Below, in pieces: positions 60,167 through 64,000 of a stretch of DNA of 64,000 bases (its first letter is position 1; every line of letters starts with the position of its first letter). The position numbers and the translations under genes are program-made. The DNA is from a virus (Duplodnaviria; Caudoviricetes), in IMG/VR virus record IMGVR_UViG_3300033068_001920, positions 14,929 through 78,928 of that record. One strand, written 5' to 3'. The notes beneath the pieces were generated by a model that was not told the origin of the DNA, searched no databases, and saw only the letters and a list, made by a program, of their open reading frames with translations.

Positions 60167-60209
60167 ATTCTGGGACCAGATCGCCCGGCCGGCGGCCATT
60201 GTTTCCGAT
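60167..60209 (-). promoter_or_regulatory. Candidate late promoter ATCGGAAA-N29-CAGAAT
   Basis: Shared architecture; sits directly beside the IS left end. Confidence 0.5.
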
Positions 60210-60277
60210 CTGGGTAGTGTCTCAGTTTGAAATCCCCAGTCCTTGAGCAGTCAGCCGGGCCGGGGGACAATCGGGCC

Positions 60278-60508
60278 ATGACGACCCCTAAGCGCCCGAG
60301 AGACGCGAACCAGCTAGCAAAGCTGGTTTTGGACATTGCGACTGGCGAAGAGCCGGAGGCGATGCCTGAGGAGGCTGAGCCGAAGTTGGAGGCAGCGGTG
60401 GCCCGGGGCAGGAAGGGTGGCAAGGCCCGGGCAAAGGCGTTGACTGAGGAAGAGCGGGCCGAGATTGCCCGGAAGGCCGCTGAGGCGCGCTGGGGCAAGA
60501 AGGGCTGA
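60278..60508 (+). CDS. Small basic protein typical of IS1/IS1595-type elements
   Basis: KRPRDANQLAK...GRKGGKARA..LT.EER.EIARKAA.ARW; promoter TTGAGC-N17-GACAAT, leaderless. Confidence 0.8.
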   Translation: MTTPKRPRDANQLAKLVLDIATGEEPEAMPEEAEPKLEAAVARGRKGGKARAKALTEEERAEIARKAAEARWGKKG

Positions 60509-60577
60509 CTAGCCCGCTTGCTTTCACTTGGCGGCTTTGCCATTGTCCGACGATACAAAGGACTGTCGGGAAATGGC

Positions 60578-60802
60578 GTGCCCAAGAAGAGCAGGATTCA
60601 TTCCGTCATCTGCGGGAACCTTGATTGCCGCAGGTCTCTTGAGGTGAGCAAGTACAGCAGTCAGCCGCCTTCAGACGACTTCCCGCAAGAGCAAATGCAC
60701 GAAGTGGCCTATCCGGATGCTTCCGGAATTAGGGTGCAGTGTCCGACGTGCTCGCATTACACCCTGTATCTGCGACCGTCTGAGATGCGGAGCAAGAACT
60801 AG
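60578..60802 (+). CDS. Small Zn-finger protein, copy 1
   Basis: CGNLDC and CPTC; paralog of 62296-62544. Confidence 0.7.
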   Translation: MPKKSRIHSVICGNLDCRRSLEVSKYSSQPPSDDFPQEQMHEVAYPDASGIRVQCPTCSHYTLYLRPSEMRSKN

Positions 60803-61043
60803 CGCCGCACGGGTAGGGCTTCCCCTGCTTTTCCCGCCAGTCAGGATCGAACCTGAAAACGAGCATCCAATACGCTCTGGCGATCTCAGCGTATTCCCTG
60901 CTGTTGCGGTCGATGGGGAAGCAGCGGCACCGGAAGGCGTATTCGATTGCTTTGAAGATCCCCGGATTGACCATCAGTTCTTCCACACCATCCGCAACTT
61001 CGATGTTCTGGATTTGGTAGCCCTGTTCACCAGTGGTTTCCAT
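60729..61043 (-). CDS. Hypothetical RAYW-motif protein, copy 1
   Basis: Paralog of 62105-62335. Confidence 0.7.
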   Translation of the reverse strand: METTGEQGYQIQNIEVADGVEELMVNPGIFKAIEYAFRCRCFPIDRNSREYAEIARAYWMLVFRFDPDWREKQGKPYPCGASSCSASQTVADTGCNASTSDTAP

Positions 61044-61178
61044 GTTTTTCCGCTTCTTTCCTGCTGATTCAATCGACAGAGTAGGAGCCCAGCGCTGCGC
61101 TGATTTATCCGACTTTCCGAAGCGAAAGCTAGCGCCGAATCGCAGCCCGTGAGATGACTTCTAAGCATCATGTTCACT

Positions 61179-62069
61179 ATGAACCGGATGCCTCTCGCCA
61201 AGCGTGCCCAGATCCTCGGATTCCTCGTCGAAGGCATGAGCCTGCGTTCGGCGTCCCGGCTGGCGGACTGTTCGATCAATACCGTGACCAAGCTGCTGGT
61301 GGATGTTGGCGCGGCCTGCGCTGAGTTTCAGGACGGCGCGCTGCGCAACCTGCCCTGCAAGCGCATCCAGTGCGACGAAATCTGGTCGTTCGTTGGCGCG
61401 AAGCAAAAGAACGTTCCGGATGACCGCAAGGGCGAGTTCGGCATCGGCGACGTATGGACCTGGACGGCGATCGATGCCGATTCCAAATTGGTCGCCTCAT
61501 GGATGGTCGGCACGCGCGACGGCGACGCCGCCAAGGCCTTTATCGGCGATCTGGCGGATCGTCTGGCGAACCGGGTGCAACTGACCACCGACGGCCACAA
61601 GGTCTACGTACAAGCCGTGGAAGACGCATTCGGCGGCGCTGTGGACTACGCGATGCTGGTCAAGCACTACGGCGAAGGTCCGCAGTCCCCGGAACGCAAA
61701 TACAGCCCGGTCGAGTTCGTCTCTGCTGAAAAGAAGCGCATCACGGGCAAGCCGGACAAGGCCCACGTTTCGACCAGCTACGTCGAGCGCCAGAACCTCA
61801 CGATGCGGATGTCCATGCGCCGCTTCACGCGCTTGACGAACGGCTTCTCAAAGAAGGTCGAGAACCACGCCGCCGCCATCGCGCTGCACTTCATGCACTA
61901 CAACTTCGGACGCATCCACAAGACCCTTCGCGTCACACCTGCGATGGAAGCGGGCGTTTCGGATCACGTCTGGACGTTGGAAGAGATCGCGGCGCTTGTG
62001 CCGGAGCCGGTCGCAAAGAAGCGCGGGCCGTACAAGAATCGCACGCCGCGCGATTCGGAAAGCGATTGA
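61179..62069 (+). CDS. IS1-family DDE transposase
   Basis: N-terminal HTH; IQCDEIW; TTDG; TSYVERQNLTMR...RFTR.TN.FSKK. Confidence 0.92.
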   Translation: MNRMPLAKRAQILGFLVEGMSLRSASRLADCSINTVTKLLVDVGAACAEFQDGALRNLPCKRIQCDEIWSFVGAKQKNVPDDRKGEFGIGDVWTWTAIDADSKLVASWMVGTRDGDAAKAFIGDLADRLANRVQLTTDGHKVYVQAVEDAFGGAVDYAMLVKHYGEGPQSPERKYSPVEFVSAEKKRITGKPDKAHVSTSYVERQNLTMRMSMRRFTRLTNGFSKKVENHAAAIALHFMHYNFGRIHKTLRVTPAMEAGVSDHVWTLEEIAALVPEPVAKKRGPYKNRTPRDSESD

Positions 62070-62104
62070 GCGATACCTAAGAGCCGATCACCTAGAATCG
62101 GCTC

Positions 62105-62335
62105 ATGGAAAAGAAAAGCACCGAAACCGTAGATATTGAGCCAGCCCAGAACGACAAGGAGTGCTTCTTGAACCTCGGCGTTTTCATGGCGCTTGAAGCT
62201 GCTTTCAAGTCGCCTGACTCCATTTACTCACGGGAATCGCTTGAGTACAAGAACATGGTTCGAGCTTACTGGCGCCTAGCGCCCTTCGCAGAAATCTACT
62301 GGCGGTCACGCACCCATTCTTCGTCTGACGGGTGA
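62105..62335 (+). CDS. Hypothetical RAYW-motif protein, copy 2
   Basis: Ungapped alignment to copy 1. Confidence 0.7.
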   Translation: MEKKSTETVDIEPAQNDKECFLNLGVFMALEAAFKSPDSIYSRESLEYKNMVRAYWRLAPFAEIYWRSRTHSSSDG

Positions 62336-62544
62336 TAGAAGACAGTGTAGTGGTCGCACACTGTGCACTGAATGGTGTAACCGCCAAGTAGTGGGTCAGC
62401 GCGGTAGTGAATTCGTTCTTTGCTCACCGTCTCGTTTGGAGAGCCGCACAAGTATTTACCGACCTGCAGGGCGGTGGTTCGTTCGCATGTCGGCCTGTTG
62501 CCGCAGTAGACCATCTGTTCCATCGGGCGTATGCGCTTCGCCAT
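62296..62544 (-). CDS. Small Zn-finger protein, copy 2
   Basis: CGNRPTC and CTVC. Confidence 0.7.
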   Translation of the reverse strand: MAKRIRPMEQMVYCGNRPTCERTTALQVGKYLCGSPNETVSKERIHYRADPLLGGYTIQCTVCDHYTVFYHPSDEEWVRDRQ

Positions 62545-62551
62545 ATGCTGT

Positions 62552-62779
62552 TCACTCCATGAGCAGGGATGAGGGCTGGACATCAAGCGCCCTCGCGATA
62601 CGCTCGATGTTGTAGATCGTGACGTTCTTTTCGCCGCGTTCGAGCATGCCGATGTAGGTTCGGTGGACGCCAGCGGCCTCGGCTAGTTCCTCTTGGGACA
62701 GCCCGCGCTCCGCCCTCAGCCGCCGGACGTTGCCGGCGAAGACCATGACCAATCCGTTTTCCTGAGCGCCCCGAGCCAT
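62552..62779 (-). CDS. XRE-family HTH regulator (C-protein-like)
   Basis: FAGNVRRLRAERGLSQEELAEAAGVHRTYIGMLERGEKNVTIYNIERIARAL. Confidence 0.9.
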   Translation of the reverse strand: MARGAQENGLVMVFAGNVRRLRAERGLSQEELAEAAGVHRTYIGMLERGEKNVTIYNIERIARALDVQPSSLLME

Positions 62780-62860
62780 GCCCGGATGGTCTCGGTTTGA
62801 ATACTACGATTCGACATACTACGATTAGCACACGCTACAACCGTAGCAGTCAGGAAGGGC

Positions 62861-63388
62861 ATGGATATGGGACTGGCAGAAGAACTGAGCCGCCTCGCGG
62901 AACTCAAGGACAAGGGCGTACTCACCCAGAAAGAGTTCGACCGGAAGAAAAAGCAGCTATTGAACGGAGGCCGGCGGTCGTCGAAATTCGTGACCATCGT
63001 GGCCGGGTTCGTTGCCTTCATGGCAATCGCCGGCTTCGCTGCCAAAATGTTTGAAGTCGCCCCTGATATCGCCCTCCCGGGGGCTGGCTCGGCGTGCGAA
63101 ATCGCAGAGGTACAGAACTCAGTGCTGGAGTACCTCACCGTAGACAACAAGTCGCGCTACGCAGCAAAGATCCACGACCAAGTTACGGCGAAGTCGCTCG
63201 CCGATATCAGCGAAATCTACGTCAACAGCGGGACTGGTTTCACCGCTTGCGTGGCTAAGGTGGTGTATTCAGGGCATCAGAGCGATATCGGGTACACCGT
63301 CACTTGGGTTGATCGCGCCCGTGGAGAATTTGCCTTTGAGATATCCAGCATGAGCGCTGTTCTGGCGGAATACCGAGACGTGCGGTAA
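62861..63388 (+). CDS. SHOCT-domain membrane protein
   Basis: EELSRLAELKDKGVLTQKEFDRKKKQLL, then a TM segment and extracytoplasmic domain. Confidence 0.85.
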   Translation: MDMGLAEELSRLAELKDKGVLTQKEFDRKKKQLLNGGRRSSKFVTIVAGFVAFMAIAGFAAKMFEVAPDIALPGAGSACEIAEVQNSVLEYLTVDNKSRYAAKIHDQVTAKSLADISEIYVNSGTGFTACVAKVVYSGHQSDIGYTVTWVDRARGEFAFEISSMSAVLAEYRDVR

Positions 63389-63483
63389 ACGCGCTCCGCC
63401 TGTCAGGGTTGCGGCAATAGCGGTTGCTTTCGCCCCGAGGCTTTGCCACTGTCCCCTGAGACTACGGACAGTTGGGGAAGCGC

Positions 63484-63768
63484 ATGGTCAGGTGGCTACG
63501 GGAGTGGTGGGATGGCAAGGATGTCCGTGTCGATCCGGATGCAGAGGACACAACGGGCGGGATGGGCAACATCCACGAGTACCGAAACGAGAAGCACTGG
63601 ACCTCAGTGCGAGCCCATCAATTCGCCGAATGGCACGCGAGGAACTGGTCCCCACTGTGGACCCTCGCCATCGCGGCCCTTAGCCTTCTTGTGTCATTGG
63701 CCGGCTTCCTCGTCTCAGTCGCCGGGCTGCTGATCTCCTACGTTGCCCTGTCCAGAACCGGAGGCTAG
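63484..63768 (+). CDS. Hypothetical protein with C-terminal TM
   Basis: Hydrophobic C-terminus. Confidence 0.55.
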   Translation: MVRWLREWWDGKDVRVDPDAEDTTGGMGNIHEYRNEKHWTSVRAHQFAEWHARNWSPLWTLAIAALSLLVSLAGFLVSVAGLLISYVALSRTGG

Positions 63769-63894
63769 ACCGGCCTTGTAGCCGGCTTGGCGCCCCGTCT
63801 GGTACGCCAAGTCAGCCGTCGCAAGAAGAACCGCCACGAAGGAAAGCAGCACCCCGAGCAGGGCAAGAAGGAAGGCGATGATTGCGAGGGTCAC
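63715..63894 (-). CDS. Possible 59-aa hydrophobic peptide (not in ORF track)
   Basis: GTG start; VTLAIIAFLLALLGVLLSFVAVLLA; no clear RBS. Confidence 0.35.
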   Translation of the reverse strand: MTLAIIAFLLALLGVLLSFVAVLLATADLAYQTGRQAGYKAGLASGSGQGNVGDQQPGD

Positions 63895-64000
63895 GGGTCG
63901 GTCCGGCTTGGGATGGTCCTAAGCTACCCAGCCCCCTCAGCCGCCCGCCGTCCCGGTTTCCGAACCGCCCCGTTCAGGCCCCGGTTTCAAACTGAGGCAC

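What the first reader, a model, noticed from the sequence alone, without database searches (positions are those of the whole stretch)
60578..62544. Mirror-image diverged two-gene modules flank the transposase: ZnF> <X tnp X'> <ZnF'
Seen: X (60729-61043, -) and X' (62105-62335, +) align without gaps at 20/48 identities (IEVADGVEELMVNPGIFKAIEYAF...RNSREY....RAYWML versus IEPAQNDKECFLNLGVFMALEAAF...RESLEY....RAYWRL). ZnF (60578-60802, +) and ZnF' (62296-62544, -) share V.CGN..C.R, L.V.KY and QC..C.HYT....PS. Each pair is convergent with overlapping 3' ends (74 and 40 nt), and the layout is inverted about the transposase. I recognise neither family. Keeping partner, orientation and overlap despite this divergence implies a functional two-component unit. 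Candidates: toxin-antitoxin with antisense coupling, an anti-phage or superinfection-exclusion module with two specificities, or transposition accessory factors.
Basis: partly seen in the sequence, partly recalled or inferred. Interest (0 to 1): 0.8.

Follow-up and report, generated by a model that had tools for sequence, protein, structure and literature searches.

The report
Paired cargo cassettes in IS1 transposon
The two mirror-image gene pairs are real, related copies of a rare two-gene cassette of unknown biochemistry, carried as cargo inside a 3.8 kb IS1-family transposon that has landed in a phage genome.

Summary
X/X' (BLASTP E 2e-10) and ZnF/ZnF' (E 2e-12) are true paralogues, and each pair is convergent with 74 and 40 nt of 3' overlap.

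The transposase is not a separate IS sitting between the pairs. The whole block lies inside one IS1-family transporter IS, 60213 to about 64004. It has a 19-bp terminal inverted repeat and makes 8-bp target duplications. Whole copies occur at other sites, for example splitting a malK-like gene.

X (32 clusters among 1.84 billion proteins) and ZnF are rare, selected protein families. Neither has a Pfam, PDB or fold match. In 8 of 9 X loci a ZnF gene lies tail-to-tail against X, in IS1-type and IS1595-type transporter ISs and in one phage-like contig. ZnF also occurs without X, three of four times beside defence-candidate genes.

The cassettes are GC-poor, sit in two exchangeable slots, and are absent from 120 sister elements, so they are dispensable for transposition.

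The overlap is probably incidental, because X's overlapping tail evolves neutrally. X and ZnF divergence is uncorrelated.

My best guess is an addiction or exclusion-type conflict cassette (about 0.35). The main rival is a small regulatory pair. Function is untested.

The scan had already noted the IS element on this same DNA.

The parts
60213..60231 (+). Left terminal inverted repeat (GGTAGTGTCTCAGTTTGAA) of the IS1-family transporter IS. The putative 8-bp target copy lies at 60205-60212.
   Evidence: Exact match that is unique in the window, with 0 of 100 shuffles matching. The same 19-mer bounds elements carrying 8-bp target duplications in 33 of 37 complete copies.
60278..60508 (+). Core small basic protein (76 aa) next to the left TIR. 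It belongs to the element backbone, not to the X/ZnF cassette.
   Evidence: Conserved at 47-62% identity in three other cargo variants: L011 (annotated 'histone H1'), L013 and L022. It was found in 23 of the first 80 TIR loci scanned (L026-L105).
60578..60802 (+). ZnF (74 aa). A zinc-ribbon protein with motif CGNxxC...ERIH...QCxxCGHYT. This is the left cassette.
   Evidence: Omega is about 0.3 against L003. The AF2 model of paralogue ZnF' has pLDDT 84.
60729..61043 (-). X (104 aa ORF). The conserved helical core is about residues 10-76. The last 25 or so codons run antisense over the 3' end of ZnF and are not under selection.
   Evidence: Core pN 0.094 against pS 0.78; tail omega about 1.2. 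In the AF2 model (mean pLDDT 80), residues 11-70 are confident (block pLDDT 88-97) and the tail is at 51-57.
61114..61121 (-). TTCGGAAA box, 78 nt upstream of X.
   Evidence: The box occurs with at most 1 mismatch upstream of X in 6 of 9 loci, while 30 shuffles reach at most 5. Three of its 5 copies in the window lie inside the element.
61170..62069 (+). IS1-family DDE transposase (299 aa, single ORF, with an N-terminal HTH and no zinc finger detected).
   Evidence: Pfam DDE_Tnp_IS1 scores 35.2 bits, above its 24.1 cut-off. NCBIfam IS1 scores 65 bits, below its 100 cut-off. Relatives at 65-70% nucleotide identity are annotated 'IS1 family transposase'.
62054..62061 (+). TTCGGAAA box, 51 nt upstream of X', inside the last codons of tnp.
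62105..62335 (+). X' (76 aa). A paralogue of X that starts 35 nt after the tnp stop. This is the right cassette.
   Evidence: It is 70% identical to the X of the IS1595-type element L023, but only 37% identical to X.
62296..62544 (-). ZnF' (82 aa). A paralogue of ZnF whose start lies 7 nt downstream of the HTH gene's stop codon.
   Evidence: Its closest relatives are the ZnF-only proteins P0012 and P0013 at 49-51% identity.
62552..62779 (-). XRE-type HTH regulator (75 aa) heading the HTH-ZnF' operon.
   Evidence: Pfam HTH_3 at 8e-18. Its best PADLOC match is the restriction-modification 'Control_protein' at 4e-24. An orthologous HTH precedes a left-type ZnF in L003.
62861..63388 (+). SHOCT-domain membrane protein (175 aa), divergent from the HTH gene. 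It is variable cargo.
   Evidence: Pfam SHOCT at 3.4e-8. SHOCT genes also lie next to the cassette in L005-L009 and L014.
63472..63894 (.). Variable cargo segment with two small ORFs that appear to be membrane proteins (63472-63768 +, 63715-63894 -). It replaces the DUF3800 gene found in sister copies.
   Evidence: There is no homology to L005 between 62940 and 63924.
63957..63964 (-). Subterminal TTCGGAAA box, about 63 nt upstream of the 63894 (-) ORF.
63986..64000 (-). Right TIR (TTCAAACTGAGGCAC..., one mismatch), cut 4 nt short by the end of the record.
   Evidence: together with the homology of 63924-64000 to L005:1107-1032.

Best explanation
SHOWN. The region 60213 to about 64004 is a single IS1-family transporter IS. 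It has 19-bp terminal inverted repeats, makes 8-bp target duplications and has a central single-ORF DDE transposase.

ZnF/X and X'/ZnF' are two diverged copies of one portable, GC-poor two-gene cassette. They occupy the two cargo slots on either side of the transposase. Both genes encode real proteins under selection. ZnF is a mildly basic protein of about 75 aa with four conserved cysteines. X is a mildly acidic helical domain of about 60 aa. The cassette always has the two genes tail-to-tail. It travels as cargo in IS1-type and IS1595-type transporter ISs and is not needed for transposition.

INFERRED. The cassette is a conflict (addiction or exclusion-type) module that benefits the mobile element. 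ZnF would be the nucleic-acid-binding component. It is often expressed under an XRE / C-protein-like regulator. X would be its counter-partner, expressed from the opposite strand, here co-directionally after tnp (X') or divergently from it (X). Because the genes abut without a terminator, convergent transcription should make each transcript antisense to the other's 3' end. That would give mutual dampening, but this coupling is a by-product of compaction rather than a selected overlap. Two diverged cassettes would give two non-cross-reacting specificities.
For: Element:
- The TIR is exact at 60213 and truncated at 63986-64000.
- Complete copies carry 8-bp duplications: L005 inside a split malK-like gene, L019 and L022. 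Overall 33 of 37 TIR-bounded elements have them.
- The tnp is IS1-like.

Cassette:
- Paralogy is significant.
- Both genes are under purifying selection.
- X has 32 clusters at 50% identity among 1.84e9 proteins. ZnF has 11 clusters.
- A convergent ZnF is found in 8 of 9 X loci, inside TIR-bounded IS1 elements (L014, L022) and inside an IS1595-type element bounded by 41-nt inverted repeats (L023).
- Two GC troughs (0.51-0.575, against 0.59-0.65 across the body of tnp and peaks of 0.635-0.665 over the small basic protein and HTH genes) coincide with the two cassettes.
- In L003 a left-type cassette sits behind the orthologue of the right-hand HTH.
- Wastewater contigs replace 60509-61139 with 524 other letters, and 62042-62589 with 486 or 1389 letters (table 5).

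Conflict context:
- The HTH best matches R-M controller proteins at 4e-24.
- ZnF-only relatives sit beside an Mrr-like nuclease (PDC-S02-like) and near PDC-S54 at 9e-159.
- Sister elements carry XRE-Peptidase_M78 proteins in the same slot.
- Tn3-family transposons are known to carry toxin-antitoxin pairs as part of the transposition module (PMC7157771).
Against: - Neither protein resembles any known toxin, antitoxin, defence or anti-defence family.
- Both proteins are small, hydrophilic and lack any enzymatic motif.
- The genes are convergent, not an operon as in type II toxin-antitoxin systems.
- Pairwise divergence of X and ZnF across 8 pairs is uncorrelated (r 0.06). That is unlike co-evolving cognate toxin-antitoxin pairs.
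- ZnF occurs without X (L016, L017, L018, L146), and X probably occurs once without ZnF (L024).
- No binding, toxicity or expression data exist.
Confidence: 0.35

Rival explanations
1. Regulatory pair. ZnF is a small zinc-ribbon nucleic-acid-binding regulator and X is its helical antagonist or co-regulator. Together with the XRE HTH they set expression of the cargo genes and/or the transposase, with no addiction or exclusion effect.
For: - ZnF has a basic N-terminal tail and a four-cysteine site.
- ZnF is co-transcribed with XRE-type regulators in 3 of 8 pairs.
- ZnF occurs without X in four loci: as a small extra gene in operons with defence-type genes in three (L016, L017, L018) and downstream of an H-NS-like ORF, my reading of the translation, in the fourth (L146).
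- A TTCGGAAA box lies 50-78 nt upstream of X in 6 of 9 loci, and is enriched inside the element with 3 of the window's 5 copies.
- X' follows tnp by 35 nt, and X is divergent from tnp.
- The lack of X-ZnF co-divergence fits proteins that need no specific mutual interface.
Against: - Neither protein shows DNA-binding fold similarity.
- Two diverged copies per element, and cassette replacement between close relatives, are more typical of specificity determinants than of housekeeping regulators.
- Sister elements manage without the cassette.
Confidence: 0.25
2. Anti-defence cargo. X and/or ZnF are early-acting inhibitors of host restriction or another defence, helping the transposon or its phage or plasmid vehicle to establish in new hosts.
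For: - The cassette is found only on mobile DNA: transporter ISs, a phage record and a phage-like contig.
- X is small, acidic and helical.
- ZnF' gives a weak hit to the Lar restriction-alleviation zinc ribbon, E 0.084.
- The upstream HTH resembles R-M controller proteins.
Against: - The Lar hit is sub-threshold and seen in only 1 of 14 family members.
- ZnF-only relatives lie in the same operon as a defence-type nuclease. That is odd for an inhibitor.
- There is no match in BFVD or PHROGs.
Confidence: 0.12
3. Transposition accessory factors. ZnF would supply the zinc finger that this IS1-type transposase lacks, and X would modulate it.
For: - Classical IS1 InsA carries a zinc finger plus an HTH (my own knowledge of the family). 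The 299-aa transposase here shows only an HTH.
- X' is probably co-transcribed with tnp.
- X/ZnF pairs sit near IS1-type or IS1595-type transposases in most loci.
Against: - None of 120 loci carrying the identical TIR in reference genomes has X or ZnF. Within the first 80 of those loci scanned, 25 hold the transposase.
- Those elements still show 8-bp duplications.
- The IS1595-type partners already have their own zinc ribbon.
- The pair also occurs in a phage-like contig with no transposase within 4 kb.
Confidence: 0.06
4. The symmetry itself is the functional feature. Either a local inverted duplication created long gene-bearing inverted repeats around tnp, or tnp is a separate IS that inserted between two pre-existing modules.
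For: The layout ZnF> <X tnp X'> <ZnF' is mirror-like.
Against: - X' is 70% identical to the X of L023 but only 37% identical to its neighbour X. ZnF' is closest to ZnF-only proteins. The two cassettes are therefore separate lineages, not a local duplication.
- No TIR-like sequence flanks tnp closely.
- Related elements carry a single cassette on one side (L014, L022).
- Half of all orientation combinations would look mirrored.
Confidence: 0.03

Closest known systems
Transporter insertion sequences (tIS) of the IS1 and IS1595 families (Siguier, Gagnevin & Chandler 2009, cited in PMC7986276; tIS concept in PMC9330008)
   Same: A single DDE transposase, short terminal inverted repeats starting GGT, 8-bp target duplications and passenger genes inside the repeats.
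   Different: Cargo lies on both sides of the transposase, in two exchangeable slots. A conserved small basic protein gene sits next to the left end. The 19-bp repeat is invariant across many phyla. I could not check ISfinder for a named member.
Toxin-antitoxin pairs carried inside Tn3-family transposons (PMC7157771)
   Same: Small two-gene modules embedded next to the transposition genes of a transposon. They are variable between related elements and are plausibly stabilising.
   Different: Here the two genes are convergent rather than an operon. Neither protein matches a known toxin or antitoxin family, and no co-divergence of the partners is seen.
C-protein-controlled restriction-modification units with convergent genes (for example the Esp1396I type, from my own knowledge)
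   Same: A controller-like XRE HTH heads an operon whose last gene meets a convergent partner gene. The HTH matches PADLOC Control_protein at 4e-24.
   Different: There is no nuclease or methyltransferase. The 'R' and 'M' positions are taken by proteins of 75 and 60-100 aa with unknown fold.
MqsA/YgiT-type antitoxins (zinc ribbon plus XRE HTH; from my own knowledge)
   Same: A four-cysteine zinc ribbon functionally linked to an XRE HTH. Here they are adjacent genes (HTH then ZnF').
   Different: The polypeptides are separate and in the reverse order. ZnF members give no match to any Pfam antitoxin family, and there is no RelE-like partner.

Membership tests
IS1-family transporter IS | DDE transposase of the IS1 family | tested here: met
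   Pfam DDE_Tnp_IS1 scores 35.2 bits against a 24.1 cut-off. NCBIfam transpos_IS1 is the best hit at 8e-18 but falls below its 100-bit cut-off. Relatives at 65-70% nucleotide identity are annotated 'IS1 family transposase'.
IS1-family transporter IS | Terminal inverted repeats and a short target-site duplication | tested here: met
   The 19-bp TIR is present at both ends. An 8-bp duplication is found in 33 of 37 complete elements, including the X/ZnF-bearing L005, L019 and L022. In the window the right end is cut by the end of the record, so its own duplication could not be checked.
IS1-family transporter IS | Passenger genes inside the repeats that move with the element | tested here: met
   The same cargo block is found at at least five sites: the malK-like gene, L019, L006, L010 and the phage.
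Type II toxin-antitoxin system | Two co-directional, co-transcribed genes | tested here: not met
   X and ZnF are convergent in all 8 pairs.
Type II toxin-antitoxin system | Toxin or antitoxin belonging to a known family | tested here: not met
   No family matched in Pfam, NCBIfam, PADLOC or PHROGs for any member.
Type II toxin-antitoxin system | Toxicity of one partner neutralised by direct binding of the other | not testable with these tools
Type I toxin-antitoxin system with 3'-overlapping antisense RNA | Small hydrophobic toxin peptide and a non-coding antisense RNA | tested here: not met
   Both strands encode conserved hydrophilic proteins (GRAVY -0.5 to -0.8).
Restriction-modification unit with C protein | Controller-type HTH | tested here: met
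   PADLOC Control_protein at 4.3e-24. XRE HTHs match such models easily, so this is weak.
Restriction-modification unit with C protein | Endonuclease and methyltransferase genes | tested here: not met
   No such domain was found in the element's named ORFs (76-aa protein, ZnF, X, tnp, X', ZnF', HTH, SHOCT) by Pfam. PADLOC (which did not include the 76-aa protein or tnp) also found none. The two small ORFs at 63472-63894 were not scanned against either library.
Lar restriction-alleviation zinc ribbon (PF14354) | Match to the family profile above its threshold | tested here: not met
   E 0.084, 13.6 bits against a 28.6 cut-off, in 1 of 14 members.
DUF3310 (PF11753) | Match to the family profile | tested here: not met
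   The only link is a language-model feature similarity of 0.90. None of 33 X members matches the Pfam profile at E up to 5, and there is no BFVD fold match.

The most novel reading that the evidence does not exclude
X/ZnF is a previously undescribed kind of two-protein conflict module. It would be a convergently encoded protein-protein addiction or exclusion pair, built from two folds with no solved relatives, that hitch-hikes in the cargo slots of IS1 and IS1595 transporter ISs. It would exist as interchangeable specificity variants, which would explain why one element keeps two diverged copies.
Probability: 0.25. Interest if true: 0.7.

Novelty: new variant of a known kind. Interest (0 to 1): 0.5.

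Why it matters
Transporter ISs are a poorly explored way for small gene sets to spread between chromosomes, plasmids and phages. This lineage keeps an identical 19-bp end across many phyla and swaps cargo in two slots.

A rare gene pair that keeps the same tail-to-tail architecture in unrelated transposon backbones is a good candidate for a new self-stabilising or host-manipulating module. Both proteins lack any annotated family or solved relative.

If the pair stabilises or protects its carrier, it would extend to simple ISs the idea that transposons carry addiction modules. That idea is so far shown for the Tn3 family. It would also give two new small protein folds a function. If the pair is only a regulator, the interest is modest.

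Tried and rejected
- Family libraries. Pfam, NCBIfam, PHROGs and PADLOC gave no family for X or ZnF.
- Solved structures by sequence. PDB profile searches found nothing at E up to 1.
- Fold searches. Foldseek against PDB and BFVD found nothing at E 0.001 or better. VIA-align wide gave a best Z of 4.0 for X (generic helices) and nothing at Z 2 or more for ZnF'.
- Atlas feature search. It suggested DUF3310 for X, but no profile or fold search supports this.
- Lar lead for ZnF'. It is sub-threshold and found in one member only.
- Other collections. Scans with the X profile (A4) of GTDB genomes and of IMG/VR, and a ZnF-profile (A5) scan of IMG/VR, found no relatives. The ZnF-profile scan of GTDB genomes could not be run. 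Two close copies turned up in JGI metagenomes. tblastn against plasmids and phages gave one ZnF-only hit in Burkholderia and nothing for X.
- RES/Xre toxin-antitoxin pair beside the Acidiphilium transposase. It looked like cargo at first but lies outside the TIR.
- hhalign of the X profile against the neighbours of ZnF-only genes was negative.
- Sigma-70 promoter scan found nothing.
- Internal TIR-like 19-mer at 62783-62801. It has 5 mismatches and the wrong orientation for an alternative end, so it is probably chance.
- Expression. No RNA holder is listed for the stretch, and the runs laid are contigs that cannot show transcripts.
- Relatives of a virus record cannot be drawn.
Full report
**1. 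The observation**

- X (60729-61043, -) and X' (62105-62335, +) align without gaps at 22/60 identities, BLASTP E 2e-10.
- ZnF (60578-60802, +) and ZnF' (62296-62544, -) align at 24/63 identities, E 2e-12.
- The convergent overlaps are 74 and 40 nt.

Both gene types are truly coding. I compared the window with an orthologous cassette of 75% nucleotide identity (L003). The X core has pN 0.094 while pS is saturated at 0.78. ZnF has omega about 0.3. The part of X that overlaps ZnF has omega about 1.2, whereas the same DNA read as ZnF has omega 0.32. The long X tail is therefore read-through over the end of ZnF and not a selected peptide. The AF2 model agrees: X residues 11-70 are confident (block pLDDT 88-97) and the tail sits at 51-57.

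**2. What surrounds it**

The window is the last 64 kb of a 78.9 kb IMG/VR virus record. Earlier notes of this scan describe P1-like Dar/Hdf genes just upstream.

Close homologues of X led to metagenome contigs that carry the whole block from 60213 to 62940 at 92% identity. In L005 this block is bounded by the inverted 19-mer GGTAGTGTCTCAGTTTGAA and an 8-bp direct repeat (GCTTGGCG). It splits a malK-like ABC ATPase gene into an ABC_tran half and an OB_MalK/TOBE half.

In the window the same 19-mer starts at 60213. Its inverted partner starts at 63986 and is cut 4 nt short by the end of the record. So the element spans 60213 to about 64004, and the assembly broke inside its right end.

The same cargo block occurs at other sites:
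- L019, with its own 8-bp duplication.
- L006, next to gcpE.
- L010.

The transposase is IS1-like. Relatives on Mesorhizobium, Hoeflea and Acidiphilium plasmids are annotated as IS1-family transposases and lie inside elements with the same repeat but different cargo.

The exact 19-mer occurs in more than 120 reference genomes from many phyla. Thirty-three of 37 complete elements, 0.6 to 4.8 kb long, have an 8-bp duplication.

This is a transporter IS in the sense of the ISfinder authors (PMC7986276, PMC9330008). A 76-aa basic protein next to the left end is shared by four cargo variants. It belongs to the backbone and not to the module. No terminal-repeat-like sequence flanks the transposase closely, so it is not a separate IS nested between the two pairs.

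**3. The cassette**

An exhaustive profile search found only 32 clusters (at 50% identity) of X relatives among 1.84 billion representatives. They share a core of about 55 residues, GV..ALE.AFR ... EYAEI.RAYW.

ZnF has 11 clusters in the word-based search. Its motif is CGNxxC ... ERIH ... QCxxCGHYT.

Gene callers often miss one partner. Six-frame profile searches show a ZnF ORF convergent with X, overlapping or abutting it, in:
- the window (two pairs);
- L003;
- L014 (33 nt overlap);
- L021 (32 nt);
- L022 (abutting);
- L023 (31 nt);
- L025 (about 135 nt).

Only the short contig L024 lacks one. The apparent cysteine-rich C-terminal extension of X relative P0026 is simply the antisense reading of its ZnF neighbour.

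The pairs lie inside IS1-type elements bounded by the TIR (L014, L022). One lies inside an IS1595-type element bounded by 41-nt inverted repeats (L023). Another lies next to an IS1595-type transposase (L003), and another in a phage-like contig (L025).

ZnF also occurs without X:
- after an Mrr-like nuclease (L016, L017);
- near PADLOC candidate PDC-S54 (L018);
- on a Burkholderia megaplasmid (L146).

**4. Cassette behaviour**

- The two modules coincide with two GC troughs, 0.51-0.575 against 0.59-0.65 across the body of tnp and peaks of 0.635-0.665 over the small basic protein and HTH genes.
- X' is 70% identical to the X of L023 but only 37% identical to its neighbour X. ZnF' is closest to ZnF-only proteins. 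The two copies are separate lineages and not a local inverted duplication.
- In L003 a left-type cassette sits directly behind the orthologue of the right-hand HTH.
- Contigs from wastewater runs replace 60509-61139 with 524 other letters, and 62042-62589 with 486 or 1389 letters. This defines two exchangeable slots.
- None of the 120 sister loci in reference genomes has X or ZnF. The cassette is therefore dispensable for transposition.
- Across eight pairs, X and ZnF divergences are uncorrelated (r 0.06). This suggests partner shuffling or no tight mutual interface.

**5. What the proteins look like**

The AF2 models are fairly confident.
- X has pLDDT 80 and is helical over residues 19-71.
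- ZnF' has pLDDT 84. Four invariant cysteines join an N-terminal knuckle to a C-terminal beta hairpin.

Neither model matches anything in PDB or BFVD, nor in PDB by sequence profile. X is mildly acidic, with a median core pI of 5.2. ZnF is mildly basic, with a median pI of 8.4. Both are hydrophilic.

The HTH upstream of ZnF' best matches R-M controller proteins. An XRE HTH precedes ZnF in 3 of 8 pairs.

A TTCGGAAA box lies 50-78 nt upstream of X in 6 of 9 loci, while 30 shuffles reach at most 5. Three of its five copies in the window fall inside the 3.8 kb element.

**6. Interpretation**

Shown:
- The region is an IS1-family transporter IS.
- It carries two diverged copies of a portable, selected two-gene cassette.
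- The tail-to-tail architecture is conserved.
- The cassette is dispensable for transposition.

Inferred: I favour a conflict-type module (addiction or exclusion) at about 0.35. The reasons are:
- the cassette's restriction to mobile DNA;
- the two diverged copies and the slot exchange;
- the controller-like HTH;
- the defence-type neighbours of ZnF-only genes;
- the XRE-Peptidase_M78 cargo in the same slot of sister elements;
- the precedent of toxin-antitoxin pairs inside Tn3-family transposons (PMC7157771).

The main rival, at about 0.25, is a plain regulatory pair. It fits the ZnF-only operons, the conserved upstream box and the missing co-divergence. Anti-defence (0.12) and a transposition accessory role (0.06) are less likely. 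A functional role for the mirror symmetry itself is largely refuted.

The convergent overlap should still cause antisense interference. Because X's tail evolves neutrally, I read that interference as a consequence of compaction.

**7. Limits**

- Complex prediction and the atlas fold library were unavailable.
- No RNA holder is listed for the stretch.
- ISfinder could not be consulted.
- The window's own target duplication cannot be checked, because the record ends inside the right repeat.

Noticed in passing
They include Acidobacteriota, Bacteroidota, Alpha-, Beta-, Gamma- and Deltaproteobacteria, Binatia and Planctomycetota. TIR-bounded units range from 617 bp (MITE-like, with no room for a transposase) to 4790 bp. 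33 of 37 have 8-bp duplications.
   Followed up: partly
window 60278-60508; L011:1464-1673; L013:1303-1539; L022:2579-2821: A 70-80 aa basic protein (KRPRDANQLAK ... KGG..RA..L.PE.R.EIA.KAA..RW) sits next to the left TIR in four cargo variants. One record annotates it as 'histone H1'. It is probably a backbone gene of this IS lineage.
   Followed up: partly
window 61114-61121 (-), 62054-62061 (+), 63957-63964 (-): Three of the window's five TTCGGAAA boxes lie in the element, each 50-78 nt upstream of a cargo gene (X, X' and the 63894 ORF). The box recurs upstream of X in L003, L014, L022 and L023. It may be an operator or a promoter element.
   Followed up: partly
window 63986-64000: The virus record ends 4 nt short of the end of the right TIR. 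The assembly probably broke on this multi-copy element. Insertion into the phage is therefore supported only by the left junction.
   Followed up: partly
window 60509-61139 and 62042-62589: Contigs from wastewater and sludge runs join across these two stretches with 524, 486 or 1389 unrelated letters in between. Sibling elements therefore carry other inserts in the same two slots. The replacing sequences were not shown.
   Followed up: no
L022:2466-2511: Two TIR copies lie back to back, 8 nt apart (2466-2484 - and 2493-2511 +). One element has inserted right beside the end of another.
   Followed up: no
L012:4319-5157 (Acidiphilium plasmid): A RES/Xre toxin-antitoxin pair abuts the right TIR of the 2.6 kb element but lies outside it. 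The annotated RES gene overlaps the TIR and the end of tnp by a few bases.
   Followed up: no
window 62783-62801: A TIR-like 19-mer (14 of 19 matches, same orientation as the left TIR) lies 3 nt upstream of the HTH start codon. It is probably chance, with about 0.1 expected in the element.
   Followed up: partly
L014:4184-4504; protein P0019: One X subfamily carries an N-terminal hydrophobic helix in front of the X domain. It follows a SHOCT membrane-protein gene in the same direction, so some X proteins may be membrane-anchored.
   Followed up: no
L013:2244-3431; L011:2162-3265: Sister elements carry XRE-HTH fused to Peptidase_M78 (ImmA/IrrE-like) in the slot that holds ZnF/X in the window.
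   Followed up: partly
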